Shown: positions 321 to 59,100 of the stretch, piece by piece
Numbering within the stretch: position 1 is the stretch's first letter
Layout: each line of letters begins with the position of its first letter
Assembly (NCBI GenBank): GCA_905178155.1
Contig: CAJINV010000001.1
Location: forward strand, 6,605,860 to 6,669,859
Reading direction: 5' to 3'
DNA: 64,000 nucleotides
Source of the DNA: Amoebophrya sp. A120
Taxonomy: Eukaryota > Protista > Dinoflagellata
Translations under genes and position numbers: made by a program
The notes under the pieces: generated by a model
What the model saw: only the letters and a program-made list of their open reading frames with translations
Databases searched by the model: none
Told to the model about the DNA's origin: nothing

Positions 321-3300
321 CTATCCCGGCACCCCAGCGGCGGTGAGAATCCGCTTTGCGGCGGGAGACTGGGTTCGATAGCGCTGCAGGAAGGACACGA
401 GGCGTTCGGGAAGCTGCTCAGCGACGAGTCGGGGGATGCGGATACTGGCCCGGTCGTTGACTCCCGCCTCGCGGCGCAGCAGCAGGTCCGCGGCCCGCAC
501 GATCTTGTCGGCACTGTCCTTCAAAAATTGCAGTTCGTCGCTGGGAGGCAGGCCGTCGCTCGTTGTGGCAGACACGATAAACCTAGCGATTTTCTGAAAC
601 TGACGGCTCAGTTCGGGCACGGAGGGTGGCAGGGCATCTACGGAATCCATTTGCTGCTTCTGCGCGAGCCGAAGCAGTGTGGGCGAGAGGATGCGGCTCA
701 GAAAAAAGGCTCCGGTCACGGAAACTGGGTCCAGGTCGAAGTGTTCCGTACTGGCCTGAACGTATTGATAGTTTTCATAGCCTTGTAAAATCTAAATCGC
801 ATTCTTTCAGCTGCTTCAGGTCTCGTTCTAATGATTCAATACACAGAAAAGGTTTTTCTTCTCGAGGCTGCAGAGAAAGGCAACTCTTTATCTTTGTACC
901 TGAAAGATTCTTTGCAGTAGGATTACGAACGGCGCCGGGAGGTCAAGCGGCCGAGAAAGTATCGAGTCCAAGTATTCGCTGAGCGCCGCAAACATACCCC
1001 CTGACCCGCCATCCAATCCTTCGGCACGCTGCAAAAGCAATATCAGGTCGGGCTCCAACGCCATTAGTTCCGACCTGAGAGATTTCAAATTGGGATGAGC
1101 TCCTAGAGACGTAGACAATCGCTGCACACAAAGAAAAAAAAACAAAAGTGCTACAGCTACTGCAACAACGATACTTAGGAAAGGAAATACCCAGCCAGCT
1201 TCACCATAGCGGACGTGAGGGCTGCGAGAACGCTTCGGGTGCTGAACAGCGTTGCCACAGACCCCTGTGCCTGCTTCATGTCGTCATTGAGTGCGGCCTG
1301 CAGAAAGCCCGTGGCAGATCCGTCCTCTCGGGCGTTCAAGAGCTGCAGTACCGCAATGTCCACACCGGTGCGTTCGCGCGCCGGAAGTTCTCGCAGGAAC
1401 TGCAGAGTGTCGGAGTACTGCGAAGATCTTCCCCCAGCCGACCTTAGCGAATCCACCAGTTTGGCCGCGTCGACCTCAGCTGCGGTGCTGACAGGAACCC
1501 GATCGGCGGTTCGCTGCCTCGCAGCGCGACCACTGGCCGAAGCCAAATCAGGATCGTGGCGTGAGGAGGATGCGCCGGATTGACCCGTCAATAACGGACC
1601 ACCTTCCTCACGATCGACACTGCCGTCGGGCGAAAAACCAGGGGTTCCGCGCCCAGTCGGGGACGGCCGGTTGCGAAACGACGAATCGCCGCCCAGGGTC
1701 GCCGCGCCCCGCTGCGCCGCCTGCACGATCGGCCCGAAGGCACTGCGAGCGCTGCCGAGGTCGCTGCGGCTGCGCGGACTCGTGGTATCCAAAAGTGCGG
1801 GTTGCTGTTCATCGTCCCGCGGGTAGTATTGCGACGTGGTTTCCTCGTCTTGAAGATAATTCGCTTGCACAAGCGGGCTTGCGCGCGTCGGCGGACTTCG
1901 GTCGCGCTCCTGCTCGGTAGTAGGCTGGCGCACTGAGAACTGGTACTGTTCTGCGGTTTTGGAGACGCTGCCACCCCCGTCGCGCACCGGCAGATCCTGC
2001 CAGCCATCCGCCCCAGTGCGCTCGGACATTGGCGGGATGCTGCGGGGCGACACGGAGCGACCGCTCCGGTTCGTCGGCGTCGGAGAAAGCGGTCCCGGGG
2101 GCGTCGCGCTCGTCCCCACAGCTGTCGTCACCACGTCAAGATTTCCCTCGATGATGATGTCATCGTACAAAAAGCTCGGGAACCGCGCCGCGTCCATTTT
2201 CGTGTGCTGCGTGGAGAGTGCGAGAAACTGATTCATCAGCAGTTTGTGCCTCCGTGTCGCCTTCAAAAACTCGACCGGCGGGAGTGCCATCCGGGCGTGC
2301 GCGTAAAACGCGTCTCCCCATTCTTAGCACGGGGCCACCTCGTACTTTTAGAGTTTTCAAAAAGACCGGAGCACGAGTTCAAAACCGAGTTCATTACGAG
2401 TTTAATCCGAGTTCAATAATTTGCCCATTGTCAGTTGACCTAAAAAAGGGCGCAGGTCAATTGACTTTTGACGATTTCCAGGCAAAGTCAATTGACTCTT
2501 CATTTTCGTTTTATGAGAAGCCAGTTGACTTCTGAGAGCTTTTGCCAGAAAAGTCAACTGGCTTCTGCAAAAAAATTGGGCACATCCTTCAAATTTTTGC
2601 TGTCTGTTTGCGAAATGAGCCGAATTCAGGAAAAGACATTTGACTTTTTTTGAAATTAGCATAAAGTCAATTGACTTTTTTTGATGCAAATTCCGCACAA
2701 AGTCATTTGAGTTATTGCAAACCACGCAAAGCCAGCTGACTTTCGACAGAAACGCTGGCTCTTTGCGATTTTGCAACAGGTCAAATGACTTTGCGAGAAA
2801 TATAGGATTTTGTGTGCGTTCGTTTTGAACTCGCACTGAACTCATCTTTGAAGTCTTTTTGAAGTTTTTTCGAAGTACGAGGTGGCCGGATGCTAACCAT
2901 TCGAACAGTAGCAGCTGCGCGAGCAGCTCCCGCCGCAGACTCTGTAGGTACTGCAACTTCTTTTCCTGAATGTTGTGGATGGTCTGGACGCTCTGCCTCA
3001 ACACGGACTCCACACGGCGCTGGATTCCGTCGTAACTGAGGTGGATCTTCGTCAATTGGTCGTGCCGAATTTGCAACCTCTCGTAAAGAATTTTGCGGCT
3101 CTCCGCCGCGTTCGCTCCCGGCCCGGCAAGAACGTCGGAGTTGTTGATCAGCAGATTGGTGTTGCTGGACGTCGAAACTGCGGATGCAGTTCCAGCTGTT
3201 TTGTTTGTCATGAGCCCTTGCATCGCCATTTTGAACGCGTCCAGTGTGCTGACCAGCGGGTTGTCGGCCATTTCGGGGCTGGAGTGGGAACCGATGAGGA

Positions 3301-5536: not shown

Positions 5537-8500
5537 TTACTTCAACTTCTCCTCAACTACTGAATACGATGGTGCCGCGAAATTTGCAGTACGCCGCAGC
5601 GCCGCAGCTGTTTCTGGGCCGTAGCTATCTAACATGTAATTCAAATGAGAGTCGCTGTTTTTTATCAACTCCCAAGGTGCGCCGTCCTCGGCCACTCTTC
5701 CGTCGGACATAACCAATATCCGATCGAAGTCGATGATAGTCTGCAGTCGATGCGCCACCGTGATCAGAGTGCAATCGTGAAACTTCCGGCGCACCAGACC
5801 CTGTACAAGCCGATCGGTGTGGTTGTCAATGTTAGCCGTGGGCTCGTCCATAACGACGATCGGCCGCTTTTTCAGAAGCGCGCGGGCAATCGCGAGCAAC
5901 TGCTGCTGTCCGGCTGATAGACCCAGTCGGTTCGTGTTTGCGCGAGGCTGCTGACGATTGGTTGGGGACGTCGGGGGCGATGCAGATGCTGATGCTTGCA
6001 CAGGAGACTGTTCTTTTCCGTTCGTCGACGCAGCTGGAGAGGCGGGAGGTAGGCTGGGCGAGTCCGACCCTGCTTTCAACCTGGACTTTGACGAGGTGGC
6101 ACCCTTTTCAACACCTCCGAGATCTTTACTCACCCCGTCCTTCGAGCTGACGCGCATGTGCAGCAGCTCCGGCACTTGGTCGGATCCAAAACTCAAACTT
6201 TCGTGCAGACCGACTTCCTCCAGGATCCGAATCAGTTCCTCTTCTTCGTGCTCCCCGAAAGGGTCGAGATTGTTCGCGAGCGTACCCTCCAGTAACAGCG
6301 TCTGCTGAGGAATCACGGTGATTTGCCGCCGCAATTGCTGCAGCCCCATGGAATACGTGTCAATGCCGTCGATTTTGATGTACCCAGAAGGGGAGGATTT
6401 TTCATCACCAACACCTGCCGAGCATTCTATTTCCACCAAACGGAACAAGGCAACGAGCAAGCTGCTCTTCCCCGCCCCTGTGCGTCCGATGATGCCAGTC
6501 TTTGTCCCTTTTAGAAATTTCACGTTGACGCCCTGCAAGCTAAGCGGCAGGTGGGGACGGTAGCGGAGGCAAACGTCGGAAAACTCGATGTGAACTTGCC
6601 GGACACCTCCAGTGGGCGCTGCTGCGACAAGCTGGTTCATATCTGCGACCGGAGCAGGATTTTTTCCGGCCACCACAACACCTGCGCCTGTGTACCAAGG
6701 CGGATCTTGGGGCACGAACTCCTTATCCTGCAGCTCCAGCACCCGTTCGAGACTCACCATCATGTTCAGCGTGTAGCAGATGATGAGTACCAGCAGCGAG
6801 AAGAAGTAGGGGAGCACAAAGGAGTAGGACAGCGCGATGCCCACCTCGCCCGGCTCGAAGTCGTTGCGCAGACTCAGCATCAGGATGGCCGCCGCAATGC
6901 TGATGGCGTAGGCGGCCAAGCTAGCCCAGAGGAATCCCGCGTGGGTGACGGTCTCCGCAAAATAGCGGTAGCGAAGGTATTCCGACAAAAATTCTGCCAT
7001 GCGGGTTTGAAAAAACTTTTGCAACTGCATCGAATGGATGACTTCCCGGCCGGTATTGCCGGACTCCTCCAACATCGTCATCACTGGGCCGAAGGACTGG
7101 TTGGTTAGGCGCTTCGACTCCATAGAGAGTAACGCCACCCGCTTTATGATCAAGTAGAAAGTCGCCAGCGAGACGACCAAGACCGGGATCACAATCGGCA
7201 CCACGATGGCGATGACAACGACTAGTGCCGTGACCGCAAAGAAGAAATGGGCGGAGTCGTCCAAAAAAAGCAGTAGAAAATGGTCCACGGCACTGAGATC
7301 AGCGCCGAAACGGGAGAGAATGCGGCCGGACGGGGTCTGCTCGAACCAAGTCCACCGTGCGTGCATGACTGTGGTCGCGGCGTCGTTGTGCAACTGTTTG
7401 CAGGCGCGGTTCATGGCTACCGCGTTGAACAGAGACAAGGCGAATAGGCCGCACAAGTGGGTTAGGGTTAGGCCTACGTAAACCAAAATACGCTCTGTTT
7501 GGGAGTACTTGGAATTATCGTTTTCGTTCTCGCTGGACGTGACCCAGTCGGCCAGCCACAGGTCGGTCAATGCCATGGCTGTGTAGCAACACAGTGCGAT
7601 CGAGACCACCTTCGTCAGGTACGTGTACCGCCCGAGGCTGTTGAAAAACGGCCGCAATGTCTGCGCCGTGGAAATGCGGCCCGTCTGCGCCATCTCCTTT
7701 GCAAAAACGTCGCTTTTAGTCGACCTTGTCACTGTCAGATCTTGTTTGGACGATGGGGGGTCGCCATCTTTAGAGGAGCAATCCGCAGCTTTTTTCTTTG
7801 CTGCAGAAGCATCTGCTGGGTCTTGCTTTTGCGTTGCCTTTATCTCAAAGTCAATCTCCTCTGCAACCAGCGCAGCGTCCGTTTCCGCGGGTCCTGAAGA
7901 TGAGCACAGGCCAATTTCGGGATTCGCATCCTTTTCATCTTCTGCTGTGTTTTCGGAGTAAAAGCGCCTGAGTCCGGCGCTACCCCCTTCGTCCTTTCGC
8001 AGCAACTCCGCTAGCGTTCCTTGTGCACTGATCTGCCCCTTCTCAACAAACAACACATAGTCACACCTGGGGAGAAAGTGCAGCTGATTCAGGGCGATTA
8101 TCACGGTCTGCCCAGAAAGACGTTTTGCGAAGACGTTGTCGAAGATCGCATTTGCGACGTGCCCGTCGACAGCTGATAGGGCGTCGTCGATGACCAACAA
8201 ATCTGGGTCACCATAGACAGCTCGCGCGAGCGCCAACCTTTGCTGCTGGCCTCCCGATAGCGTGGTACCTCTTTCCCCAATTTCCGTCTCCCAATTCCAC
8301 GCACCACGCTCCATATCATCAACCAGTTGGCTTTTCCGAACGGCCTCGTTGAGAAGGGCGCTCGCTTGCTCTCCTTGCTCATCCGGGTCACACCGACCCA
8401 TCGAAATGTTGTCGCGAATGGTACCGGATAAAACAAAGGGCTTTTGAGGCACGTAGCCAATGTGTGAACTCAGTGGCTGTGCGTTTGCTGTTGCTTGCAC

Positions 8501-10318: not shown

Positions 10319-10954
10319 TTTTTTTTTTGCTGTGGTATGGCTTCACCACTTACATATTTCGTCTTGGTCGACGTTTTCTTTAAATGCTAGATTTACTACA
10401 TGCTGTACTGTCAATATCGCCAACACGTCCCGTACACAGACACGTATGACTACGCAGCCGGTGGGAGAAAAATTGCAACACCGATGAGAAATTACCATCT
10501 CTTCAGACTTCCAAAGCGAAACCAACACCACGACTACATTTGAGATTTTCGTATGTAGGTTCCATGATCTTTCAAGACCATGAGTACGATTTTTGGCTTA
10601 GGCTTTGGGTTACGATAGCGATAGCGGAGAAAGAGCGGAACAAACAGCGATAACGGGAAAGAACAAAACGAACCAATACCAGAAGCATCGAAGTGAATAC
10701 TTGGCGGCAAGGGCGTTTGAGATGAACAGCCACTACCAGAGAACAAAGCCGAAACAGCACCGGGAGGCATCGGCTACGGAGAAAACATCAACTCAACCTG
10801 TGCGATCCTGGAGAAATCGTTTTCACTTTCGTATTAATTTTGAAGAGGAACTTCTGATTTCCTCCAAAGTAAAGTGCAATCGTTTTCGTCCGCAGTAAGT
10901 TCATTCGTCACCCGGAGAAACAGATCTTGCAGGTGTATCAAACTGTACAAGTTT

Positions 10955-13900: not shown

Positions 13901-16169
13901 CGTCCCGGAAAGGACGAAAGGCTTCTGTGGCACGTAACCCACGCTCGAAAATGCTGAATCGCGACCGCCTTTCTTCCAGTTGTACCGAACTTTCCCCTTT
14001 CTCCTCACCATGCTCCCTAGGAGCGACAGAAGCAAACTTGTTTTGCCACACCCAGTACTCCCAACCACGGCGACCAGATTGCCTCTGCGAACGTCAAAGC
14101 TCAGGTTGCGGAGCAGGAACTCCGTAGTCCCTGATCCAGATGTTGATGCTGTCACAGCAACTTCAGGGCTTGACGGAGCGCCTTTGTTGTCTTTATCATC
14201 TTCGGCAGGATGCCAGGAAAAAGAAGCGTCGACAACTTTTACCAAAACAGCTTCGTCAGCCGACAGAATTTCTGCAGTGCCTGCTGAACTCGGTTCCTGG
14301 TACCGCTGAAAATCCTCCTGGTCCGGACTTTGTCGCAAGTAGGAATCCAACCGTTGCATGATCACCTTCCAGGTGAAGATCGAGTTCACACAGTTCGGTA
14401 AGCTTCCGATCGGTAACCGCAAGCTCATGAACGCCGTGATCGTTGCAAATACGTTCGCTGCCGTCAACCGGTCCCCGCGCAGGGCCATCAGGACGAACGT
14501 CGCGCAAGCAGCCATCGCCGGCGCGTTGCGCCCGAAAGCCATGCAGGCGACCTGCCAGAACCGAAAGCGGAGAATTTCCCGAAGCTCCTGTTTCCGCTTG
14601 TTGAACAAAAGCTGCAGGTAATTTTCCTCCCAGGTCAAGTACTTCACTTGCTGAATCCCCGCTACCATCTCCCGCATGGTTGTCAGCCTGGAATCCGCGA
14701 TGGCAGTTTCCTTTCTCACAATCGGCGCCATAATGCTGCGAGAAACTTTTGTGGAAAACACAACGTACCCGAACATGAACAGCATGCCGACTAGTGCGGG
14801 AAAGCCGACGAGGTAGAGAAGCCCGGCAATTCCGCCAACGATGCCGACGAGACTGGCGACGAAACTGAAGAGGCCCATCCGCAAATCATCACACACACGC
14901 AGAAGGTCGTTGCCAACGAGAGTCAGTTCGTTAGTACTCGACGCCGCAGGTGGTGAACCTGCGCCTGCCGGTGCTTTTGCAGTTGTCCCTGGTGAAGTAG
15001 TGGAAGTAGGCTGATTCACAAGCTGCTTCGTTGCCGCGCAGCGCGTGTGGCGCATGACTTTCAAGTGCACGACCGGAATGACCCAGGCGAGAAAGGCGCG
15101 GACAAAATGCGCCTGCAACAGCTGTCTCACCTGCACGATCAGGACACCCTCGGAGATCAGCACGACGGTGAAAATGCACAAGAGGATGATCAGCTCAGTG
15201 GTCTTGGTCGCTGGGTTATCGAAAGAAAAAAGTGTTACAGTTACACATTGTGTTGCAGGCCAAGCAAGACAGAGCAGCTCTGTCATGCCGGATATGCATA
15301 AGAAGCTTCGTTTCATAGGTGTGTTCCCTTAGGATTTCTGCATTGCAAGTTTTCTCCCTCCTGCAGAAAAATTTGTGTTGCTGAATTGACAACACGTGTG
15401 TAACTGTAACACTTTTTTCGTGGGATATGGGTCCATGGACGCATCCACGACGAGCTTCAGCAGCACCGGACGGGCTATATCAAATGTAAAAATGTTTGGG
15501 CCTGGAAGGTTGGAGCTTGTGATGCTAACTCTGGACTCCAAAAAAATCTGTAATGCATGATCAGCAAGAGGAGTCTAGTTTGTGCTACGCGGGGAGGGCA
15601 TTTGTCATGCGGATTAGGCATCCAGAAGCCCTCGAAAAATCTGTGATGCTAGGTCATGCATTATAGACATTCTGGGCCATGCAAAATCTGCATGTCAAAC
15701 CCAGCAACATTCCAGACTGACCCAGACATTTTTACATTTGATATGCCAGATTCGTAAGCAACCCCTGGATCACCGACAGGATGAACCAGGTGACTAGATG
15801 TCTGCGTCCCCGGAGCCATACTTCGTTCCAGAGCGCCGATTGTTTACCGTCGGTTTGTCCTCCTGCTGGCGCTTCGAGTTTCGCCAGAATTTCGTCTGCA
15901 AGAAACGGAGCGGCTCGCTTTGACGTGGTAGTAGATGACGTTGCATCTTCTTCCGCTGTCGCAGTGCCAATTGTGATTGCCTCGGCGGAGTACCGTCTGA
16001 ACTTCGGTATTTCGGTGACCAACCGCTCGGGGTTCGTTGTTAAACGCAGAAAAGGCACAATCCATGCGAGCGTCAGGCCGGAGAAAAATCCCGGCCCACC
16101 TCCTAGTGCAGGAGTGACTGATGAAGGGATAGCACCCTTGATCTGCAAGTCCGGTTTCGCGTTCGTCAT
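10955..16169 (-). CDS. ABCC/MRP-type ABC transporter, tandem paralog with two introners
   Basis: Highly similar to 5537..10318. Exons ~16169-15744, 15477-15428 and 15216-10955 give LTNLARPVLLKLVVDASMDPATKTTEL, colinear with the paralog's LTNLARPVLLKLVVDASMDEATETSEL. Start ATG (MTNAK) inferred. Confidence 0.93.
15217..15427. mobile_element. Introner/MITE (211 bp), TATC...GATA ends
   Basis: TIR TATCnnAnGAAAAAAGTGTTACAGTTACACA at both ends. Perfect TSD TGGGT (15212-15216, 15428-15432). Absent from the paralog. Confidence 0.93.
15478..15743. mobile_element. Introner/MITE family A (266 bp)
   Basis: TIR TATCAAATGTAAAAATGTyTGGGyCTGGAA. Imperfect TSD GGCTA/TGCCA. Absent from the paralog. Confidence 0.92.
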
Positions 16170-16786
16170 CGTTGAAATGAAGGTTTTCAATAGGCTGGAA
16201 GACACTACTTACGCAAGACAGCTAGATTTTTTTCAAATGCATGCAGCTGTGACACAAGCTGCACTTGGCCGCCACATGGCTTCTTCAATAACTCTCGCAT
16301 TCAAGATCAAGACCCCACTCGTTCTTGTTCCCTCGTCACCCGTTTTACTTTTACTTAAGTTTACCATGCCCCGGGGAAGACTGCCGTCCTCTTTCGCACA
16401 CCGGCGCTGCGGGCTGCGGACCGCCAGAGCAGAGTTACAACTTCCACGAAACATGATAAACGCAAGTGGATGCTGTTAAAAACTCAGACTCATTTCTGCA
16501 GAAAGTTAATTTCATATCATGTTCTTGAAACAATAACAAACCATCAGAAACTTACCTTGCCCGGCTCCAGCTTGCTGCTCCTTAATTCTTGATTGCTTTC
16601 TTTGTGTTTTTCAGAGTGGATGTATCAACCTCTTGTGCGCCATCTTCTTGTCCTCGATTGACGACTCTTTAGTGCATGTGCGACGGAACTCAGATCAAAG
16701 CCAACAAGGAGAAGAGCTCTGGCTTCATTGATTTCGTGAAAAGCCACGCCGTTCAAGCTTCGTAGTTGCAAGAAGGTTGATTTTTG

Positions 16787-19700
16787 TCAAAAGCAAACAA
16801 TGCGACTATCCTTTCGTCGTCGTCTTGCGAAGAAAGACACGACTTCGTCGAAAACATCCGAACGACTTACCGGTGAGACCGCAGCTCCGGTTGAATCTTT
16901 GCTGGAGAAGTGGGTGTGGGCCGGTGGTGCCTGCTTTTCGTACGAGGGTTTCTCCGCACCTCCTTCGAGCGCCGTTTGCGCCCTCATCTCCTTCATGTAC
17001 TCGGCACACGCTTTGAACATGTCCTCGTCACTGCGATCATTCCCAATGCACAAACAGAAGCAGAACTTCAGCGACTCCGGAATCTTGTTGCCATTCGCAT
17101 CGAAGGCGACGCTGCTTCGGGGGCCGGAAATGCGGAATGCGTCTTGGTCTACTCCTGCCGCGGTTCTACTAGAGGATCCTGCGGAGGTGGTTTTCGCGAG
17201 AGAAGCTTGGTCGCTTTCTGCAGACGGCTGCACGATTGGTGTGCTGAAAAAGAACTTCGTCAGAGCCGCGCCTTTACTCACGCCCTTCAACCCCACCTGC
17301 ACGTACGTGTTGCCGTTTTCGATGGAGACCCCGGTGTATTGTCCGAGATAGTCCTCGAGCTGCTTCACCAGATTCTGAGCCTGCTGCTTCCCGAACATGG
17401 GTTCGCACCCGCCGAAGTGCCAGTAGATGCAGCTCCCGCTCTCCTCCACAAACGCACCCTGGGTGCGTTTCGCGAACGTGCTCATCAAGACCTTGGCGAT
17501 CCGTTGCCACCTTTGATTGTTCTCGATAAGAAGGTTGTTGTTGATGCAAGCCCACCGCAGATCGATGTTGACGTCCTCGACCTGGGCGTACCAATAGCCG
17601 TCTTCCGCGATAATGTGCAACCCCTGCACCTTGTGGAAAAAGCTCTCCAGCTGCTCGCGACTGCGCCCGCTGCAGACGATCACGGTGTTCTCCTTCTGGG
17701 CGCACATCTTCTGCAAGCATCGGACCAGGCCCTGGTGGATCGGGTCCAACCTGATTAATGTATAGTACAGTGAGTCGGAAAAATGAAAATCAGCATAGCC
17801 ATTAACAGGTCGAGTTCGAAATGAATAGACAAAGAGAAAGAGCAAGCAGCAATGCTAAAAAACATCGAAGAAGAACAAAATACGCCGTCCTAAATTCCTC
17901 CGTAAACTGGTAGTTCGTTTCCATGAGACTGTAGCTCAATCCACGAAACACCAGCGCTGCGTCCATATCGAATATCAGCAGCCTTCCATGCCGTCTCCTG
18001 TGCCATTCCTTCGCGCAACTGTGGTACCGTTCCTGCACCACCTTTGGGTTCAAAATCGACGTCCACGACTGCAGCAACACCTCCTGATACGGTTGCTCCT
18101 GCGAGCGCGCGAACCGCGCCGGCATCGGCAGGGGCGCAGTTGTCTCGCTACCGTGCTGCTCCTCGAAGCAAAGCTCGGTTAAGAAGTCGGACAGCCACTG
18201 GGATAAGGAAAGGGAAGAGACGTAGTTGAAGTCCTGCGCAAACCGTTCGTACCGATCCGCGTCCAACATGTTCATGGCAGAATCCATCTGCTGACAAATG
18301 TTCGGCGTGGACCAGGGATTCACACGCAAAGCACCGATCAGCGCCCGACTCGCGCCGCTGAACTCGGACAAAATTACCGCACAGTTCTCGTAGTTGCTGC
18401 GCTGTTGACCAGACGGGTTGTTCAAGTTCGTCTTGCTCGACTGCCCACTCCCACCGCCCCCGTACTGGTCCCTTTCATTCGACACAGCGGTACCCCCGGC
18501 CGACCCGCCAGCCGGTTTCTCCTTCGAGTTTTGATTTGACGACTGGTGCGGGTCGGTCTGCTGCTGCATCAGTGCCGCGGAGTTCTGCCCGTGAATCATG
18601 ATGAACTTGAATGCGGCGATGTTCAAGCCATTTTTCGTACACGTGTCGATGTAGATGTTTGCGGTCTGCAAAACCTGAAACGCCGTGGTGTCGTTGATCT
18701 GTCCAATTTGCAAATGGATGTGGTACCCAAATCGCTCGTTGATTTCCCGCGCACATTGACAAACCTCGTGCTCGAGCCGCGGCGTGTCGTCGAAAGTGAC
18801 ACTTGGCGGGTAATAGCAGTACTGCACTAGGAGGAACTTGTTGTGGTGCTGCGGGTAATTTTCCAGGAAATACCGGAACGCCTGCATTTTGTTCGTCAAC
18901 CCAGCGAAGCGCTCGATGCAGTCCACGCTTCCGAAGATGATCTTCGATTTGTGGTCGGCGGGTAAATCTGCGACGATCGAAGTTCCCGCCAACCGCGAGG
19001 GCGACATGGGACTCATGGGAACGGCGCCCGCCGCTGCGCTTCCAGTTCCCGCACTGCCCCTAGCGCTGCTGACGGTGCCGTGGTAGTGCGTGGACATGAC
19101 GTGCGAGCCTTGGGGCTGCTGCTGGGCCGTGACGGCGCTGCTGCGGTATCCTGAGCAAAAACGTACCCACACCAGAGTCAAGATGGTAAATCTGCTAGAC
19201 AAATCAACCAGCTTTGGCTGTTTCGCATGACAAGTTTGTCCTTGTAATGTAATCCTGTTTAGGTAGTTCAGCAGCATCACAGGTCTAGCATATCATGCTG
19301 ATTATAGCATCACAAATCCCAAAACACGATTAGAAAATGCCTTTCATGGGGCTCAGCGTGAGAAACTTTTTTGGCGTGCAGATTTGTATTACAACTCTGG
19401 TGTGGGTACGTTTTTACTCAGGATATGCGGCCGCCCTGCATCACGTTGCGGAACGTGTTGGGGAAGTGTTCCATATGGCGTTCTCAAACGTTACATTCTC
19501 AACTGTTACATGAAATTTGTCATGCAAGAATGGTAAAGTGTAAGTGAAAGGGAAAATGTTGCGCCTTTTGCATTACAGGTTTGGAGTAGATTGTAATGCT
19601 ATGTAGCGCGTCAAGAAGTTGTCATGCGGAGAAGGCTTGATCGTGTTAAGAGCGATAGTGATTTTGCACCTAGAATACCAAGACGCCACAAAAACCTCGA

Positions 19701-22700
19701 GGAACCATCCACAACCAAGAACCTTGGAAAAGTGGGGTCCCCGAAGTCCTGGAGGTGAGATGCGAGGGGGACGCCTATTAGCTAAAGCACTAAAAATAGC
19801 ACTAAAGCAGAGGCACAAGGAAGCGGAGTAGTCAGAAATTAACTTGGAGCCGTCCTTACGGAGGACTCCAGCAACCTCAGTCCACCACTGCCCTCGCATT
19901 CACAAAAGCAACAACACAAGAGTGTCGAAGCAACACCGGACGTCCATCCCACCGAAAGCACCACGGCAACTAAGAGCTGTCACACAATAGCACCAACGAT
20001 GAGGCAATGCCCTGGGGGGACCAGAAAAGAGGAATCCTCCCCATAATGTCTAAGAGCAGACCGCACACGTCAAGTAGTTTCAGCTCTTAGAAACAGGCTG
20101 ACGCCGTGAAAACAAGTGATTTTGCATGACAAATCATGTAACAGTTGAGAATGTAACAATTGAGAATCCCATATTCCATCACCGCGCCTTTGGTGCCCGG
20201 CGGTCCGGGCTGGGTCAAGCCACCCACACCGACCTCCGGGTCTGTGTCACTACGGCGGTATTTGTCCCGGGCCTGGCGCCCGCGCTCGCCCGGCTGGAGC
20301 AGCTGTCCGTCGGCACCGCTGACTTGCCGCTCGATCGCAAATTCCCGGTCGGGGAACATACTGTCAAAAGCGGAGTTGTTGTTGCCGCTCTCGTTGTAGC
20401 TGGAGCCCCAGGCCGCCATCAAATCGTTCTCGCGGTAGTCCATAATATCCGCCGGGTCGGATAAACTTGCCGTTGAGGACTCCGGCTGGTTCTGCTGGCT
20501 CGCACGGTACAAGTGGTCCGGCCGACCAACGACGACGGTCAATGAGCCGGGGTCATTCGACTTCCCGTAATTCGCGGGTAAGCACAAGTGTTTTGACGAC
20601 AGCTGCGTCGATTTGCCGTTGTGCTCGAGGGTGAGAAAACCGCCCATTTTGAACACGTGCTGTACGCCGAGCAGGCGGGTGCAGGCGGTGAGAAAGTGTC
20701 TCGAGTAGTCGAAGATCTGGAAGCCGACGAGGTCAAACGCCAGCATGCCGCGAAGCAAGTCGTTCCGGACTGGTAAGCACTTGAGCAAATCCGAGCTCGG
20801 CCAAGGGACGTGCACGTACAGCCCCGTCTTCACCTGCAGCGGGGCCGTTTGACCGCCGCCGGCACGCCGCGATGCGGATAATTTCCCTGATTCCATCTGC
20901 GGCGAGCCGCTGCCCCGCGCGCTCACGCCCGCTTTCGGCGACGCCAGGCTTTCGTTGTCCCCTGCGGTATGCGTCCGATCGCGGGTCCGGGCAATGAAGG
21001 CGTGCTGGTGCACGTACTTACCCAACATCAGCAACTGCCAGTCCTGCGCCCACACAATGTCGCCGGACCGCACCTTCTTGCTGCGCATCAACGTTTCCGC
21101 CCACTTCTCGTTGGCCTTTTTGTACGCATCCCAGTCCTCCTTGGCGAAATCTTTAACCTGCTGCCCCATGTGCGTGGCGGATTGGGGCATGAAGATACTG
21201 AAGTTGTGCGTGATCGGCCACAAGTAGCTGTAGCAGAAGGACTGGAACTTCTTCCAAATCTCCTTCTCCACAAACACCGGAATGCAGTCCTGCTCGAGGA
21301 ACAGACCAGTCAGATTCTCCTTCTGCGCACCGGTCAAAGGGAGGTTGTTAGAAAAGATTTTTGGCGACCCGACGAAGTACAGCCGGTACTGTTTCGCCAA
21401 TTCGTGTCTCGTTTTGTACAATGCGAAGATCATGCTGTCGTTTTCCTCTGGCAAAGGAACTAGCAGTGGCGTATCCGCCTCGTAGTGGACGCACAGCGTA
21501 TCATGAGGAAAAATGCCCCCTCCCCATATCGAAACGAAGTTTCTGATGCTGGATTTCCATACACAAATCAGATTTGTCTTGCAGTAGAGGAGTGCACGCA
21601 TGCGGCAAGCCTCAGCCGAGAGGTTTGACGTAGGCGCCTAGCATGACAAACGTGTATGCTCTGAGCCAAACAGCATCACAAACCGCCTGAAAAATGCGGA
21701 ACGCTTTCTGGACTTGCCCTCTTGCAAGACAGGCAGGATTTGAGGTCACAAATGCGCATCACAAATTTTCAGACGGATACGTTTTCGATATGGGGAGGGG
21801 GGATTTTTCTTTTTGATATAGCGGAAGACAGTGCGCGCAGATGAAAACGTTGTGGATTTTTCCATTCGGCGTGCGCGAGTTATCAAATGCAAAAATGTCT
21901 GGGTCTGGAAGAATACAAACTTGTGATGCGCATTTCAGAACACAGAAAAATCTCTCATGCATAGGTAGCAAAAGCTGCCCACTTTCTGTCACCAAAATGG
22001 GGGATTTGTAATGCGGATTCGGCATTGCGGAAGCTTCTCGAGACCTGTGATGCTAGAGCTTCCATGCCAGGCCTTATGTGTCATGCAAAAACAGCATGAC
22101 TCTTCCAGACCCAGACACTTTTACATTTGATACGAGTTGTTCGGGTGCAGTTTTGCGAGCTGCGAAAGCAGCGCGGACTCCTTTTGCACGATGTTGTATT
22201 TCGGCTCGTTCTGCGCGACCATGCTGTCGAGTAGAACTTCATTATTCCGCTGCTCCCCCGCCTGCAGAAAGCCGCGCGTCTGTCCGCCGTCGTCCTCCTG
22301 CACCATTTCCAAACCGGTGGGAACTAGGTAGTAATTCTGCTCCCGAAGCCACCGCAGATTTTTCAAATTGCTCGCTGCTGCACCTGCGGAAACGCCCAGT
22401 CCGGAGGGGTTCGCGTTGTGTCCCGATGTTGGGGTCATCATCCCGGTGAGACTATCAGCCACCTCCTGTAAAACCGGCGAGATCAGAGACGTCAATGCGC
22501 TGGTCAAGGGCTCTTGTGGGTTTTGCAGTTGTGCGTTCATCGCGAGCAGCGTTGGCGGCGAATTATTCGCCCTTGGATTCTGCAAATTGTTCCCCTCTGG
22601 CGATGACGGCAACGAATGTTGTACCACATCCGCCCGATCGGAGACTTGCACATGATGCTGAGTCGTGGGAGACGTAGCGCTTTGTCCAACGGCAGAAGAC

Positions 22701-24495: not shown

Positions 24496-24521
24496 ATCAT
24501 CATCATCATCATCATCATCAT
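24496..24521. repeat. (ATC)n microsatellite
   Basis: About 8 tandem ATC units. Confidence 0.9.
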
Positions 24522-26052: not shown

Positions 26053-26054
26053 GT

Positions 26055-26124
26055 TTGAAGCGTCTTATTGCTATTATTCCGGAAGATTGTTGAAGCGTCT
26101 TATTGCTATTATTCCGGAAGATTG
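26055..26124. repeat. Perfect 35-bp tandem duplication just upstream of the acidic ORF start
   Basis: TTGAAGCGTCTTATTGCTATTATTCCGGAAGATTG x2. Confidence 0.92.
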
Positions 26125-26757: not shown

Positions 26758-26817
26758 ATGATGTTCATCGGAACCTCTTACAGAGCGGATGATGTTCATC
26801 GGAACCTCTTACAAAGC
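26758..26817. repeat. ~31-bp tandem duplication overlapping the P5A ATPase stop codon
   Basis: ATGATGTTCATCGGAACCTCTTACArAGC at 26758 and 26789. Confidence 0.85.
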
Positions 26818-29800
26818 ATTGCTTTTATCGTCCACGCACCACCCACGGACCCAGCTAGGTCCACAGCAAGAATCCCCGCTACCCGGTGGCGCAAATCCTC
26901 GTCTGGGATCGGGTAAAGTCCGAGCAGCCAATCTACTCCAGGGAGAACCTCGAAAATCAAGAGCAACAGCACGAAGAGGTACAAAACCCACGTGTTGCGC
27001 AAGGGTTTGTTCTCCGTAAATGCCACGAGAAAGGGGCGGCCACTGTAATTCGCCAAGAAGTTTGCCAACTGATTCACCTGGATGCAGAAGAACAGCACGG
27101 TGCCGCGCAACGTCGGCACGAATTCTGCATTTACTGGTATACCGTACGCAGTCCGGAGCTTCGGAAAGTTAAAAAGCTGCGAACTTGGTGAAGAAACTTG
27201 TTCAGGTACTATCTCTGCGTTCTCAACAGCTGCAGCTTTTCGGAGAGTAGAATTTGCGCTATTATACGCATCTACTTCCGCCAGTGCCCAGAAGATGCAG
27301 CTCAAGTGGCACACAGTCTGCAGTCCCATGCTCGCCCAGGACGCCGGATGGGATAAATTTGCGACCGGTCGCTGACGCGTGAGCGGCCCAACGCTGCTCC
27401 GGCTGATCAGGAAGAACAAGGAGGAAATGAATAAACTCTCGAGCAGTGCCTGTGCTTCACTGGTTCGCGTCCCGTCCAGCGTGACGAGGCTCAATCCACA
27501 GGCCAGAACGACACTGTTGACACCCATAATCTGGTACATTTGCAGAGTCACGCAACAGGCACCGCGGCCGGCCTGCAGCAACTTCGTGACGCACTGGATC
27601 GTTTCTCCACGGTAGGTGAAAGGGCTTGCGATTGACGCCTCGCCGAGCTGGGCAGTGGCAGAGCCGCCGGGTTTGTTTGATGAGCTCGAGCCTGCACCGC
27701 CACCTGCCATCAAATCTTGTTCGTCGATAGGCAAGAAGTCCTCCGCAGCAATACCCAGCGGATTCATATCACCAGCGTCGTCCGCCTCGGAAGCGGAAGG
27801 GGACGAGGCGGGTGGTTGACTTTTCCCTTTCTTGGAGCCCGCTGGTACCTTTTTCGAACGGGACCTCGGGAAAAATTCACCCTTTTCCGTTGAAGTGGAT
27901 AGCAGCGAAATTCCCACGTGTGCGCGCTTCAACGCGCCGACATCATTCAAACCGTCGCCGTATCAAATGCAAAGTGTCTGGGTCTGGAAAAGTGTGATGC
28001 TGTTTGTGCATGACACAGAAGGTCTAGCATGCAAGTTCTAGCAGCACAGGTTTTGAGCAGGTTAGGCGATGCCTAATCCGCATGACAAGTTCCCTCTTTT
28101 GGTGGCAAGAAGTGAGCAACTTATGCGGTCCATGCATGACAGATTTTTTTCTGGTCTCAAATACGCATAAGAAGTTTACATGTTTCCAGACCCAGACACT
28201 TTTGCATTTGATACGCCGATCATCAGGGTGATCTCGCCAGATGCGGAAAAATCATCCAGCAAGGCTTTTTTGCAGTCTGGCGTTGCGCGGGCGAAAACGG
28301 AGACATGCGGAAAGACTTTCCTCCTCCAGCTAGAGAAGTTGAAGGTACCAGTACTGCTCGCATGTAACGTTCGAAACCGGCCCAAGTCCGCGAACGAAAC
28401 GCAAAGTGCCATCGATCCGGCCTTTAGGTTCTTCAGCACTCGTTTCTCGTCCAGAGATTCACCATCAGCAGAAGAAGAATCAATTTTCCCCGCGGCCGAG
28501 CCGCCTTCGAGTCGTCGCCAGCGAACTTTGAGGCTTTTGCTCTCAACAGCGTTTGCTTGTTTATTTCCGTCCACGGTCGTGGTTTGATCAACGTGATCCG
28601 CACTATTTGAAGGATAGATGGGCGTCACGAAATCCGCATCCTGCGGCACCATCCCGCATTCTTGCGCCACATGGCAGGCAGTGGCCAGCGCGTCTCCAGT
28701 GATCATGACACACTTGTGGTCGCAGTTCTGCAACTCTCGAATGGTCTTCTTCGTGTGAGGCTTCAGGTTCGACCGCAGGGCCAGGAAGCCGGCAAACTGC
28801 AGGTTCGAATCTTCGACATCCGCGCGCTCAAAAAGACTGTCAACATTCGAGCCATTTGGTTTATTTTTCTCAACTAACAAATTTGCAACTTTTGGATTCT
28901 TCTTTACTTCGGCACTCATATCCTTCCACGCGAGGGCCAACACTCGCAACCCGTGGTGCGTCAGTCTCGTCGCTTCGCGCTCGTACGCACTTGCTTCGGA
29001 TGAGTTTTTGAAGCAGATGCGAGACCGCAGCATTTCTGGCGAGCCTTTGACAAACGCGTAGACAAAAGGGGGGGATTGTCCAGCTCCTGCGCGAGATTTG
29101 CTTGTGGTGACTGGCATTTTTGCGGCGACAACGGACATGCGCTGTAATTCCGATTGAAACGGAAACCGCTCAAGAATTTTCAACCGATTCGTGCTTGGAC
29201 CAGCAGCGCTATCCTCGGCTTGCTCTTGCACAACTGTTGGAAGCCAACCGGATGTTGAGGATGCGCCTGCGCCTGCAGGTGCTCCCTCATCGAACTTCCA
29301 GCCCGCGTACTCAAAAGCCGCCTGCTCTGCGGGGTCTCCTATGATCTCGCTTGCGCATTCGTCCACTGGCTCGCTGTCTTCTCCTGGTTGCAACATGCGC
29401 CCAATGAGTCCTGGGATCTGCCGCGACTGCTGCAGCAACTTCTTCGCAAGGCCTTGAGTGCTTGATTTTGACTGTTGCTTTTTTCCTCGTTTCAGCAACA
29501 AGGAGTGACAGGCGCCCAAGACAAAATCTGCGTGCAGCTCACTTCCCATGGAGGGGGTACCTTTCATTTGCTTCGAGTCCTTTGCTGACACCCCAGGTCC
29601 ATTCACCTCCTCGTCCTTTACAGGAACTTCAGTTACCACCGAATCGACAGTGTACTTGCTACTTGTCAAAGTGCCGGTCTTGTCGAAGCAGCAAGTTGTT
29701 ACGCGTCCGGCGTACTGGAAACGATGTGGCTCGGTGCAGAAGATGCGCAGCTTGTGCAGCGCGAACAGAAACAGCGAGGTGACAAAGGACAGAGTCGTTG

Positions 29801-40539: not shown

Positions 40540-41631
40540 CTTCACGACGGTGTGTATCGAATCAACATGGCCATATCGTAACGTTCATCTCCTGTAGTTG
40601 CAACCTCCGTGCTGGCCCTACCTATTTGCGCATCGGTTTCTTGGATTGCACTCATCTACTCTATCATGATCGGGCTGCTGCATCTTTGTCACTTCTGTTT
40701 GGGCCTGGTGGTCAGAATGGACGTACGAGGACTCACATGCTGCTCAAGCATTTCTCCTACATTCTGTTTCACCGTCCTTTATTCCAAAAAAGCGACCCCG
40801 ATCCTTCGATTTGCCAATGGGTTTTGGAAGTTCGAGTTGAACGCGACGCCCGTCCCTTCACGACAACGGAACAAAGATCCGAACCAAATACCGACACCCA
40901 GCCGACACAACGATCGCGCTCGAGAAGTCACCGACTTCTGAAAAAACAAACATACTTTCTGAGGTGAGCCCTTTTACAGAACGGTTTTGTTCTTGAACTT
41001 GAAGAACTTCGCACGAAGTAGACGACCGATAAAGTTTTGGATCTCTTGCGATTGATGTAGGAACCTTGACCACTTTTTTCCCATACCGAATATCTTCTGT
41101 CTCACCCCTAACGCCGTACCTCCATCATCGTTCAATACGGGAAAGCTCCGAGACGCCATCACATTCCCACGAGGTCGACAAACCACACGTCTTGCTTTTG
41201 TGCTTTTCGTTTTCCGTAGCAATTATATCTTCGGTGTTGACCTTAAAAATCCAGGCTGAAAATCTTCGAGTCAATATCAAGCTTTTTGTACAATGAAAAC
41301 AATACTCGAGAAAGTCATTTTAGGAATATCCATCAAAGAGCGACGAAAATTTCCTCCATCCTTATTGATATGGCACAGACTCACTGCTGATGAAACTATC
41401 ATACACGGTGACGGCAAACGCAAATGAATTCTCAACCATATAGTCGCGATACGGATACCGTACTGAAACGCCTCCTACTCCTTATCTTTTTTCTAGAAAC
41501 CAGATTCGAATCGATACCATTCCTACAACCATCTCAAATTTTCAGAAGAGTACGCAATTTCTTCCGGATACGAATGAATGAAAACTTCCACATGATCGGT
41601 AAATCTCCGCAAGACCGAGGTCTCTACTCCC

Positions 41632-56178: not shown

Positions 56179-59100
56179 TCAGTCCTCTTCCTTCTTGTCA
56201 GCCACATTTGCTGCGTCTACGGCCGCCTCTATCTCCGCAACTGCCGCAGCTTCGGCGTCCACGGGGGATGGAGCGGCGATAGCGGGCAGGGACGCACTGG
56301 CCTCCCCTTGTTGTTCCCCTAGTGAGCCGTCCGCGATGGCCTCGGGAATGCCCGCCAGCTGCTGTTTTCTCCTCTTTTCTAGAATGGCCTCCCGGGCTGG
56401 CGCGTCCATGAGTTTGACCAACATTGGTTTGTCGGCCGTGACCTCGTCTGTGTCCTTGTTGTGGTACAGGATATTGCCGCTCATACCTGGAGTAGCGTGG
56501 CGAGAAGCCGTTTGGGTTTGTGAAGACACATGACGAGGACATATCACTACACTACAATGTGCTTCTTGTTGTGCAAACTATAAAGTTGCTGAAAAAGAAG
56601 AAGTGAAAAAGAAGAACTGAATGCACCTGGAACGAAAGTCCACTCTTCGTCGAGGAAAGGCTCCAGATCCCGCACGTTGTCTTTCACGGTGGTGTTGACT
56701 TCTCGTAGTCTATCCTGCTTCCCCATGACGTGCTCTTGGAGCGTGTAGAGCATTCGTCGGATCTGATGTGAAATTGCTGGATTAAATTGCATCTGCGTTC
56801 ATGATACGTACACGTAGTCATGGAAGATTAGTACAAACAAGAACAACTAAATGCTGGCTGCACTCAATTATTCTCATTTTTGGTACGGCCAAAACAACAA
56901 CAAGCGTCTGAATCAATCAGCAAAAGCAAACGAGGCGCAAACAATTTTCATCATCTTGATCTTCAGTACTTCTTGCAATTGCTCCGTCAAGTCTGCGAAC
57001 TCGAACTTCATGGTGTACTTGAGAAACTGCTCGGGTTCCAGGTTTTTTGCGTCGTCGAGGGACTGCTGAATGCACTTGGCCATCAGGTACAGGGCCTGCG
57101 GGCCGTCCAGCCCGCAGCGATCAATCAAGAAATCGCGCTCGATCATCCCGTATGGATTGGAAAAATGTCTGGGTCTGGAAGGTTGGAACTTGTAATGCTA
57201 ACTTTCCATACCTAGAAAATCTGTATTGCGTAACCAACAAAAGTCGCAGCCTCTTTTGTCATGCAAAAACGCAGTTTCTCATGCGGATTTCCTATGAGAA
57301 AGCGTTTTGGGAAGTTATCATGCCGGACTGCATTCGGAAGTGTTTTTATCATGCACATTTTAGCATCACAAGTTTCCAGACCCAGTCATTTTTACATTTG
57401 ATATCCCGTTCGCGAAATCCCCCTGGAAGCTGGTTTCTAAATTCGTCACCGCCCAGGGGATATCAAATGTAAAAATGTGTGGGTCTGGAAACTTGTGATG
57501 CTGGGTGGCGTCTCATGATGAGGCTACAAATGATGGCTCAGCATGAGAAGTTTCTGAGCTCCTAGGTGTTGCCTATTCTGCATGACAAACTGCGCTTCTG
57601 CATCACACAAAAACGCAGCTCTTGGGTAACGTGCATGACAGATTTAAGAGTCATGCCAGACAAGCATGACAAACATGAATTCTTCCAGACCCAGACATTT
57701 TTACAGTTGATAGGAGGTCTCGGCGCTGTCCGACCGCGCCCGGGCCATCTTGAGGCGGACCTGACGCACGTCATTTGGGATGGGGTCCAGCCCCTGCTCC
57801 TCGAGCGCTTCGTTTTCTTCCCGTATCTTCTGCTCCTCCGAATAAAACTCGTCGCGGTCCACGAACTCTTTCAAACGGTCGTAGATCACTTCGTAGTTGA
57901 TCTGCCGTCGCTTGCCCGACATCGCGTTATGACTGTGCACAACTCCCCCACCCCTCATTTGTCATGTAAAATCCCAAACCCAGTCGCTGCCCCGTGGCAC
58001 TGTTTGCATGACAAATTTCGAAAGCCCAAACAGTACTACAGCAAGTGCATAAATTTGCCATGCACAGGCTCCAGGGTCGCTGGCGTTCGTATTGCTGTCC
58101 ATGCAATACAAATGAGGGGGAGGGGGAGCTTTGCACTGTCATACGCGTCCGTGGACTGCGACTGGGACATCAGCGTGTCGGTGAATATGTCCTTATCCAG
58201 GAAAAAACACCCATCCCCATCCATTTTTTGCATGACAAACAGTGGACTTTACGCATGTTTTGCATGACAAATTGGATCGGGATGGGTGTTTTTTCCTGGA
58301 TAGTCCTTCACCTGCTGGAAGATGGTGTGCGCGCCGCGGAAGTTGGTGTGGTGCAGCACCCCCATGTATTTGTCGTACACGAGGGCAGTGAGTAAATTCA
58401 GCACGAGGAAAACCAAAATGATGATGAAGGAGAAGAACCACAGACTCGCGATCAGTGGAGTGATCCGGTAAATCTTGTCGTAGTCGAAATCCCCGTACAC
58501 GATCTTCAAAGTCACGCCCATGGCCTTCAGCAGCGTGTTCCACTCCTCCAGCTGGGAGCCAAAGAGGATCCAACCGCCCATGCTGTAGTTCACGTACACG
58601 AGGAAAAAGACGATCAGGAAATGCAGCATGTCGTAACTGGCGTTCACCAAACTGAGCCCCATAATCGCAATGCGCGGCTGGCCGCGGAATCCCTTGAAAA
58701 AACGCATTATGATCAGCATGGAGTAGATATCCCACAGAAAAAACAAAAAGCAGGCAGGGCATATTTGTAATGCAAAAATAGATACACAGAGAAATCTGCC
58801 ATGCCTGGCCCCATAGCATGCTGTTTAGGATATGCAGTACACATTTTTTTATGTATTTATTTTTGCAATACAAATATGACGTGCCAGCTTTTTTCTGTGT
58901 GATAGTAGAAAAACCCCAAAAGCTGCACCATTTTGCGCCGGGCCTCGATATCGTCGCTCAAAGCGAAAAGCTCCAGGTTGCTGTCGTAATACGGCGTCAA
59001 ACCCGTTCCGACGCTTCCAAATTGTCCGGTACCGACAGCGCGCTGAATAGCTTGCGGCCCTGAAAAGTCGAAGTTTGCAAGAAATCGATCTTTCCTGCTT

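What the first reader, a model, noticed from the sequence alone, without database searches (positions are those of the whole stretch)
2324..58904. Thirteen TIR/TSD transposon-like elements act as precise non-GT-AG introns in coding exons
Seen: 13 elements in 5 genes, none spotted in intergenic DNA or canonical introns. Each has TIRs and a 5-bp TSD (6 bp for 2324-2896). Removing the element plus one TSD restores the frame and conserved motifs, e.g. the P-type ATPase GDGxND and a segment colinear with the ABCC paralog. Sliding the junction across each TSD never gives GT...AG, and no dinucleotide pair is common to all (one allows GA-AG, some allow a GT start only). Canonical GT-AG introns coexist in the same genes. 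Known: inverted-repeat introners are reported in Amoebophrya, with no established excision mechanism that I know of. Inference: excision is defined by the terminal hairpin or a TIR-binding factor, i.e. a second splicing system beside the ordinary GT-AG pathway.
Basis: partly seen in the sequence, partly recalled or inferred. Interest (0 to 1): 0.9.

Follow-up and report, generated by a model that had tools for sequence, protein, structure and literature searches.

The report
Hairpin transposon introns without splice signals
In a parasitic dinoflagellate (Amoebophrya), thirteen small hairpin-ended transposon copies interrupt coding exons, and seven of them are shown to be missing exactly from transcript assemblies although none has normal splice signals; this oddity was published for this organism in 2021, and the machinery, likely a separate route that measures from the element's ends, is still unidentified.

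Summary
Real, and already published. The window is Amoebophrya sp. A120; 12 of 13 elements carry the TAT…ATA ends and 5-bp repeats of its introner elements (Farhat 2021). No cut position gives GT-AG in any of the 13. Transcript contigs lack exactly element+5 nt for seven (five in one channel mRNA, 4 of 4 runs of one sample, beside five GT-AG introns). DNA unitigs run into the element ends; no empty site was seen. Corrections: three duplications are imperfect. Element 2324-2896 is another family (TTAG ends, 6-bp repeat), has no RNA proof, and the public gene model keeps both repeat copies. Not found in the papers read: two imperfect duplications put the cut 3-4 nt into the repeat, if one register is shared; in 277 copies from another assembly the repeat shows no GT/AG bias, both orientations occur, and copies cluster 20-79 nt apart (55 of 160 gaps, 17 expected). 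Against my reading: no G·U wobble excess in the outer stem. Best guess: a distinct end-guided cut-and-join route (0.5); rival: a rewired spliceosome (0.35). The scan noted similar introns in other dinoflagellate DNA (untested).

The parts
2324..2896 (-). E1: different family; TTAGCA…TGCTAA ends (17/20), perfect 6-bp repeat GAATGG (mRNA sense), internal sub-repeats; in B-box protein gene
   Evidence: no listed RNA piece crosses it; no relative among 153 loci
15217..15427 (-). E2: TAT…ATA element, repeat ACCCA 5/5, in ABCC-2
   Evidence: colinear with paralogue only at +5; no listed RNA piece across it
15478..15743 (-). E3: TAT…ATA element, imperfect repeat TGGCA/TAGCC (both differences synonymous), 45-nt exon from E2
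   Evidence: no listed RNA piece across it
19147..19425 (-). E4: TAT…ATA element, repeat CCGCA 5/5, in trehalose-phosphate synthase/phosphatase gene
   Evidence: RNA contig X3 record 14 has a 43-nt gap = 48-nt spacer minus 5; matches P0001
19474..20173 (-). E5: 700-nt TAT…ATA element, repeat TGGAA 5/5
   Evidence: same RNA contig; P0001
21499..21818 (-). E6: TAT…ATA element, repeat CGCTA/CGCTG; mRNA keeps the fifth base of the downstream copy, so the cut is at most 4 nt into the repeat
   Evidence: RNA pieces end at 21494 in X3 and X4; length removed not read
21881..22132 (-). E7: TAT…ATA element, repeat ACTCG 5/5, 57-nt exon from E6
   Evidence: public protein P0001 agrees; RNA joint not shown
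27961..28213 (-). E8: same family as E7 in opposite orientation (79% internal identity), repeat CGGCG 5/5, splits the GDGxND motif of a P-type ATPase
57151..57403 (-). E9: repeat CGGGA 5/5, in polycystin-type channel gene
   Evidence: 258 nt skipped in 4 of 4 RNA runs
57461..57712 (-). E10: opposite orientation to E9, repeat CCTCC/TCCCC; mRNA keeps CCTCC, so the cut is at least 3 nt into the repeat
   Evidence: 257 nt skipped, joint 57454->57712, 4 of 4 runs
57928..58143 (-). E11: repeat ACGCG 5/5
   Evidence: 221 nt skipped, 4 of 4 runs
58194..58302 (-). E12: 109 nt, repeat AGGAC 5/5 (GA-AG possible)
   Evidence: 114 nt skipped, 4 of 4 runs
58728..58904 (-). E13: repeat TCTAC 5/5
   Evidence: 182 nt skipped, 4 of 4 runs
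17751..17883 (-). canonical GT-AG intron in the TPS gene, same transcript as E4-E6
56487..56626 (-). canonical GT-AG intron, channel gene
56763..56969 (-). canonical GT-AG intron, channel gene
59060..59303 (-). canonical GT-AG intron, channel gene
59548..59734 (-). canonical GT-AG intron, channel gene
60054..60397 (-). canonical GT-AG intron, channel gene

Best explanation
These are non-autonomous transposon copies (Amoebophrya A120 introner elements) that are missing to the base from transcript contigs, and they are likely cut out of the pre-mRNA by a route separate from GT-AG splicing, one that likely measures from the paired element ends and ignores the bases at the junction. Steps: (1) inferred: a transposase acting in trans inserts the element with a 5-bp duplication, in either orientation, often 20-80 nt from an earlier copy. 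(2) Predicted: in the transcript the two ends pair into a long stem that brings both repeat copies together. (3) Shown for E4, E5 and E9-E13: element plus 5 nt is absent from the mRNA. (4) Shown for two elements, inferred as a rule: the cut is staggered, 1-2 nt before the stem and 3-4 nt after it. Because 5' spacer + 3' spacer = 5 = duplication length, any insertion restores the original reading frame. (5) Untested: the catalyst is a dedicated nuclease/ligase-type activity, as suspected for Euglena nonconventional introns, releasing a full-length linear or circular RNA rather than a lariat.
For: Exact removal in one contig per run, 0 other letters, 4 of 4 runs (one sample label), together with five GT-AG introns; E4/E5 by contig arithmetic. 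All 13 fold with a terminal stem, z -4.5 to -14.3. One family is spliced in both orientations in one mRNA (E9/E10); 58:50 by motif orientation among 147 oriented copies elsewhere. Repeat sequence is at coding background: G[TC]-AG possible in 9 of 127 or 19 of 187 against 52 of 762 flanking 5-mers (Fisher p 0.85 and 0.12). All 6 RNA-confirmed canonical introns keep GT..AG, so the ordinary route has not simply lost stringency. E10 gives x>=3 and E6 gives x<=4. Euglena precedent for fixed spacers around paired motifs (PMC12501133, section 8) and for circular products (PMC11282704, section 6).
Against: No RNA-level signature of the outer stem: G·U versus A·C mismatches are 81:84 at TIR positions 4-16 and 53:32 (p 0.03, one of several bins) at 17-30; positions 4-7 pair in only 50-76% of copies (low power, copies are related). 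TAT deviations occur near the neutral rate, 27 seen against 31 expected. At x=4 all 12 introns begin N-U-A-U, like the GUA of 5 of 6 canonical introns here, and the predominant non-canonical motifs in Farhat Table S4 all have T second; both fit a rewired spliceosome. U1 proteins are present in A120 (Table S6). The register rests on two elements and assumes it is shared; Farhat calls the splice sites variable relative to the hairpin. Of 20 mismatched repeats, 12 give the same peptide at every register, more than a freely drifting intronic copy predicts.
Confidence: 0.5

Rival explanations
1. A rewired U2-type spliceosome removes them: the element's first bases give an N-U-A-U 5' site (+1 relaxed), and the stem replaces branch-point/AG scanning by holding the 3' site at a fixed distance.
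For: At x=4, +2 U and +3 A hold in 12 of 12. Table S4 lists N-T starts in A120 and T-T in A25. U1 snRNA was not detected while most spliceosomal proteins were (PMC7789003 section 10). Tunicate precedent of divergent U2AF and snRNA methylation (PMC13326754 abstract). In the larger set the only two 5'-arm copies lacking the first T read GC at +1/+2 (n=2, one may be a false hit).
Against: The last two intron bases and the +1 base are at background frequency, unlike the spliceosomal non-canonical cases read, which keep a consensus. No significant asymmetry between 5' and 3' arms at TIR position 1 (2 against 4, p 0.69; a smaller set gave 0 against 5). Table S4 motifs may reflect the aligner's choice among equivalent positions (inference).
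Confidence: 0.35
2. A TIR-binding protein (domesticated transposase) bound to the DNA marks the ends and directs co-transcriptional removal; RNA pairing is incidental.
For: Every signal tested is strand-symmetric. A sub-terminal motif GCATSACA/TGTSATGC has 30 of its 35 window hits inside elements (3.9 of 64 kb) and occurs in 261 of 277 other copies.
Against: Symmetry is also what transposition alone leaves. No such protein was identified, and I know no precedent (recalled, not searched).
Confidence: 0.07
3. The junctions are reverse-transcriptase template switches across a hairpin between direct repeats.
For: Hairpin plus direct repeat is the classic substrate (recalled). All RNA evidence here is cDNA-derived contigs.
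Against: Retention gives an in-frame stop in 13 of 13. Depth in the E11 and E13 bins equals what exon bases alone give, so no retained contig was laid, although contigs drop rare forms. E10 is removed at the frame-restoring length with only 3 shared letters.
Confidence: 0.04
4. The elements are excised from DNA (IES-like) before transcription.
For: Alveolate relatives do this (recalled). 468 joints were not shown, so a rare empty site is not excluded.
Against: Unitigs of the uniform-depth run X1 extend 24-35 nt into the element ends without branching (15251, 15720, 19172, 20145, 21524), which argues against a common empty allele. An organism without a separate germ-line nucleus would lose the elements (inference).
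Confidence: 0.04

Closest known systems
Introner elements among the non-canonical introns of Amoebophrya sp. A120 (Farhat et al. 2021, PMC7789003)
   Same: Same strain (P0001 and P0003 are 100% identical to the window); TAT start, A-run, inverted repeats, 5-bp direct repeats, about 250 nt, RNA-supported non-GT-AG junctions, mixed with canonical introns.
   Different: Nothing in kind for the 12 TAT elements. The sections read do not give a cut register from imperfect repeats, orientation independence, the clustering or the sub-terminal motif; Figs S19-S25 could not be seen. E1 (TTAG ends, 6-bp repeat) fits neither strain's described motif fully.
Euglena nonconventional introns (PMC12501133; review PMC11282704)
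   Same: TIR- and TSD-bearing introns without GT-AG, beside canonical introns; paired motifs at fixed distances inside both cuts, with a longer 3' spacer; unknown machinery.
   Different: The Euglena code N3CDG…CH'GN5-6|R is met by 0 of 12 window and 0 of 147 other elements at any register; different lineage; spacers here are 1-2 and 3-4 nt.
MITE-derived spliceosomal introners that carry or co-opt splice sites (Symbiodinium, Chrysochromulina, Florenciella, Aureococcus; PMC9860276 passages)
   Same: TIR and/or TSD origin; mRNA length usually unchanged.
   Different: Those take GT/GC/AG from the element or the TSD; here no register gives them and the TSD is not enriched for them.
Fritillaria borealis non-canonical introns (PMC11282704 section 6; PMC13326754 abstract)
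   Same: MITE-like origin, most introns non-GT-AG.
   Different: Fixed AG-AC/AG-AT ends and a modified spliceosome; here no terminal dinucleotide pair is conserved.
IS3EU/GingerRoot DNA transposons (PMC10045372 passages)
   Same: TA..TA termini; TAC is the commonest variant of TAT here.
   Different: Their TSD is usually 6 bp, here 5; no transposase was seen, so this is only a lead.

Membership tests
Amoebophrya A120 introner elements | host is A120 | tested here: met
   two proteins named A120 are 100% identical to window exons
Amoebophrya A120 introner elements | terminal inverted repeat starting TAT, then variable bases, then an A-run | tested here: met
   12 of 13, with the A-run on at least one arm; E1 starts TTAG and does not meet it
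Amoebophrya A120 introner elements | 3-5 nt direct repeat at the borders | tested here: met
   5 bp in 12 of 13 (9 perfect, 3 imperfect); 235 of 475 unfiltered candidates elsewhere have a perfect 5-bp repeat, at most 6 at any length of 3, 4 or 6-10; E1 has 6 bp
Amoebophrya A120 introner elements | removed from mRNA at non-GT-AG borders | tested here: met
Amoebophrya A120 introner elements | repeated in families | tested here: met
   10 of 13 have 4-101 relatives among 277 copies; E1, E5 and E13 have none
MITE (non-autonomous TIR transposon) | TIR + TSD, short, no transposase ORF | tested here: met
   109-700 nt; longest stop-free stretch 36-108 codons, 164 in E1
MITE (non-autonomous TIR transposon) | autonomous partner with the same ends | not testable with these tools
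   no genome is held for this window
U2 or U12 spliceosomal intron | GT/GC-AG or AT-AC ends at some register | tested here: not met
   0 of 13
U2 or U12 spliceosomal intron | lariat with branch adenosine | not testable with these tools
   only contigs covered the genes; raw-read run X9 gave 9 reads, none on exons
Splice-site co-opting introners | GT/GC or AG enriched in TSD or element end | tested here: not met
   9 of 127 and 19 of 187 against 52 of 762
Euglena nonconventional introns | N3CDG…CH'GN5-6|R code | tested here: not met
   0 of 12 and 0 of 147
Euglena nonconventional introns | excised as full-length circles | not testable with these tools
   needs RNase R / divergent RT-PCR
IS3EU/GingerRoot | TA..TA termini with 6-bp TSD | tested here: not met
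   TA..TA with 5 bp (12 elements) or TT..AA with 6 bp (E1)

The most novel reading that the evidence does not exclude
Amoebophrya A120 runs a second, spliceosome-independent mRNA splicing machine that reads only a TAT…ATA stem and cuts with a fixed 1+4 stagger equal to the transposon's 5-bp duplication. That would make every insertion of tens of thousands of copies silent in any orientation and any sequence: a sequence-blind, portable RNA cut-and-join code, convergent with Euglena's.
Probability: 0.35. Interest if true: 0.85.

Novelty: already known. Interest (0 to 1): 0.38.

Why it matters
The phenomenon is in print for this strain, so the finding is a rediscovery. It matters because the excision chemistry is still open: no mechanism turned up in seven literature searches. 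This window supplies testable constraints: imperfect duplications read the cut position straight from existing RNA-seq, and E9/E10 show that orientation does not matter. If the catalyst is not the spliceosome, it would be a second nuclear mRNA splicing system in alveolates and a candidate tool for scarless intron removal. In practice, gene models in this lineage can be wrong at such elements (E1 may be one).

Tried and rejected
No whole genome is held for the window, so genome-wide copy counts were not made. Summed contig depth over the elements in X1 is not a copy number and is not used as one. One search listed no holder on record as RNA. X3-X6 are treated as RNA because they skip GT-AG introns, and they share one sample label. 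In one search the joints table was swamped by other element copies (468 rows not shown), so E1, E2, E3 and E7 have no RNA verdict. The homologue search found nothing, but my query was in the wrong reading frame; the right frame is a polycystin channel. The TIR pattern had 0 hits in viral contigs. A permissive inverted-repeat scan was all noise (about 150 hits per shuffle) and was replaced. Rfam: 0 matches. Register from DNA alone was not resolved by strong/weak polarity of mismatches or by codon scores over 20 mismatched repeats. The control for strand-biased mutation had only 7 family members. An apparent restriction of first-base deviations to the 3' arm (0 against 5) faded with locus-level strand calls (2 against 4). 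The apparent lack of G at repeat position 1 and T at position 5 in the window did not hold in the larger set. A 210-nt periodicity suggested by window gaps of 210 and 420 is not supported, since a second gap peak at 350-450 can come from undetected elements or introns. Cryptic in-frame GT..AG pairs exist within about 20 nt of both ends for 10 of 13 elements, but the RNA joints do not use them.
Full report
Identity. The long ORFs I examined lie on the minus strand. Two proteins named Amoebophrya sp. A120 match window exons at 100%, with A25 orthologues at 56-60%. The five host genes are a B-box protein, an ABCC transporter, a trehalose-phosphate synthase/phosphatase, a P-type ATPase and a polycystin-type channel.

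Observation. I defined 13 elements from inverted repeat to inverted repeat. Twelve read TAT…ATA and are flanked by a 5-bp direct repeat: nine perfect, E3 3/5, E6 4/5, E10 3/5. E1 (2324-2896) reads TTAGCA…TGCTAA with a perfect 6-bp repeat. A strict scan gave 15 hits: the 12 TAT elements (11 with at least 15/20 complementarity, against 0-1 per shuffle in 30 shuffles) and 3 weak hits at noise level. Removing element plus one repeat opens the frame in 13 of 13; keeping any element adds an in-frame stop. The intronless ABCC paralogue is colinear only when 5 nt go with E2 and E3. No register gives GT-AG, GC-AG or AT-AC. All 13 fold with a terminal stem, z -4.5 to -14.3.

RNA. Laying four RNA-type contig sets on the channel gene gave one contig per run (3849-3945 nt, no other letters). 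It skips E9-E13 by 258, 257, 221, 114 and 182 nt, each exactly element+5, and skips five GT-AG introns. The four runs share one sample label, so this is one source. In the TPS gene one X3 contig leaves a 43-nt gap between its pieces, the 48-nt spacer minus 5, which fits removal of E4 and E5; it also skips a GT-AG intron. So 7 of the 12 elements in the stretches laid are shown removed, E6 is shown on one side, and E1, E2, E3 and E7 have no listed joint. The uniform-depth run X1 behaves as DNA; its unitigs run 24-35 nt into the element ends without branching, against a common empty allele, though 468 joints were not displayed.

Cut position. Perfect repeats hide the junction; imperfect ones show it. 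At E10 the mRNA keeps CCTCC, so at least 3 nt of the upstream copy stay. At E6 the fifth base comes from the downstream copy in X3 and X4, so at most 4 stay. If one register is shared, the intron starts 1-2 nt before the stem and ends 3-4 nt after it. At x=4 all twelve start N-U-A-U. This rests on two elements.

Wider sample. A 23-letter end pattern found 153 loci in metagenome contigs, all from one other assembly (the scan covered 17 of 64 parts), and none in viral contigs. With no condition on the flanks, 235 of 475 candidates have a perfect 5-bp repeat. Filtering left 277 unique elements, of which 233 had enough flank to score and 147 could be oriented (the method called 12 of 12 window elements on the right strand). 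Removing element+5 gives a coding-like frame in 76%, against 34-40% for +3, +4, +6 or +7 and 37% at random positions. The repeat is not enriched for splice dinucleotides: G[TC]-AG is possible in 9 of 127 perfect repeats, or 19 of 187 with looser orientation, against 52 of 762 background 5-mers. Both orientations occur, 58:50, and E9 and E10 are removed from one mRNA in opposite orientations. Copies cluster: 5 of 8 window gaps are 43-57 nt (simulated P 3e-5), and 55 of 160 gaps elsewhere are 20-79 nt against 17 expected, with 1 at 5-19 nt against 4 expected. The loci were picked by a family pattern, so they are not a random genome sample. A sub-terminal motif GCATSACA occurs in 11 of 12 TAT elements and 261 of 277 other copies.

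Results against my reading. G·U does not exceed A·C in the outer stem (81:84 at positions 4-16; 53:32 at 17-30, p 0.03 uncorrected), and positions 4-7 often do not pair. TAT drifts at about the neutral rate (27 against 31), with no significant difference between arms. Twelve of 20 mismatched repeats are silent at every register. So the DNA record does not prove that RNA pairing is what is read. The N-U-A start, Farhat's Table S4 and the presence of U1 proteins keep a rewired spliceosome alive.

E1. It lacks the TAT ends and the internal motif and has no relative in the loci. The public protein keeps both repeat copies, a TT-AA intron of 573 nt, while the A25 orthologue is colinear with a single copy. 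Either the gene model is wrong or this family leaves a two-residue footprint.

Literature seen. PMC7789003 (Farhat 2021): abstract, sections 10, 11, 12, 16 and 32, passages, supplement passages and part 3 of 5. Its Figs S19-S25 on repeat positions are pictures I could not see and may already bear on the register. It reports more than 60% non-canonical introns, 29,850 repeated introns in A120, IRs starting TAT, 3-5 nt direct repeats and no U1 snRNA detected. PMC11282704: passages and section 6. PMC12501133: abstract, sections 8 and 12. PMC12130899, PMC9860276, PMC12787238 and PMC10045372: passages. PMC13326754: abstract. Roy et al. 2023 and the original nucleosome-linker work were seen only as cited. 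Searches listed no paper that establishes the Amoebophrya excision mechanism; subscription journals are mostly outside the library.

Mechanism and verdict. Shown: insertion hallmarks, exact RNA-level absence for seven elements, blindness to junction sequence and to orientation. Inferred: a fixed stagger set from the element ends. Untested: the catalyst. I put a distinct end-guided cut-and-join route at 0.5, a rewired spliceosome at 0.35, a DNA-bound marker at 0.07, and RT artefact and DNA excision at 0.04 each. The elements are members of a described class in the same strain, so novelty is 'already known'. Interest is 0.38, for an open mechanism that imperfect duplications make directly testable.

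Noticed in passing
window 15428-15477, 19426-19473, 21819-21880, 57404-57460, 58144-58193; loci L001-L153: Elements come in close pairs that leave 43-57-nt micro-exons, usually between different families; the same excess (55 of 160 gaps at 20-79 nt, 17 expected) appears in another assembly. Cause unknown: a hot spot next to an existing element, or a chromatin footprint.
   Followed up: yes
inside E2-E12; L001-L153: Sub-terminal motif GCATSACA / TGTSATGC shared across otherwise dissimilar families: 30 of 35 window hits lie in elements; present in 261 of 277 other copies. Likely a transposase or other protein binding site.
   Followed up: partly
window 22540-23299: The public TPS protein starts at 22540, but the frame is open to 23299 and the N-terminus of the A25 orthologue (which carries PF00686) matches 23272-22988, so the A120 model is probably truncated.
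   Followed up: partly
window 2318-2902: Public model P0003 keeps both 6-bp copies at E1 (EWEW), whereas the A25 orthologue is colinear with one copy.
   Followed up: partly
L001-L153: The first repeat base falls on the third codon position in 60 of 127 copies (p 0.004), but on the second position in 9 of 12 window elements; unexplained.
   Followed up: partly
L004-L135 (20 mismatched repeats): Repeat mismatches at positions 1-2 are nearly all synonymous and those at 3-5 mostly not; a post hoc split of small numbers that could mean variable registers or conversion from empty alleles.
   Followed up: partly
window 5537-10342 and 10955-16170: Tandem ABCC paralogues (70-85% DNA identity in blocks); the first is intronless, so both elements entered the second after the duplication or were lost from the first.
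   Followed up: partly
window 19474-20173: E5 is 700 nt with an inner part unlike the other elements and no full-length relative among 277 copies; possibly a nested insertion.
   Followed up: no
window 34870-40584: A 1904-codon open frame with no element or intron; about 29 kb between 28213 and 57151 holds no element at all.
   Followed up: no
window 26055-26125 and 26758-26815: Two short two-copy tandem repeats (about 35 and 30 nt) in non-coding DNA.
   Followed up: no
L002:1358, L026:1711: The two copies whose upstream arm starts CAT instead of TAT both have a repeat ending in AG, giving a GC start; n=2.
   Followed up: no
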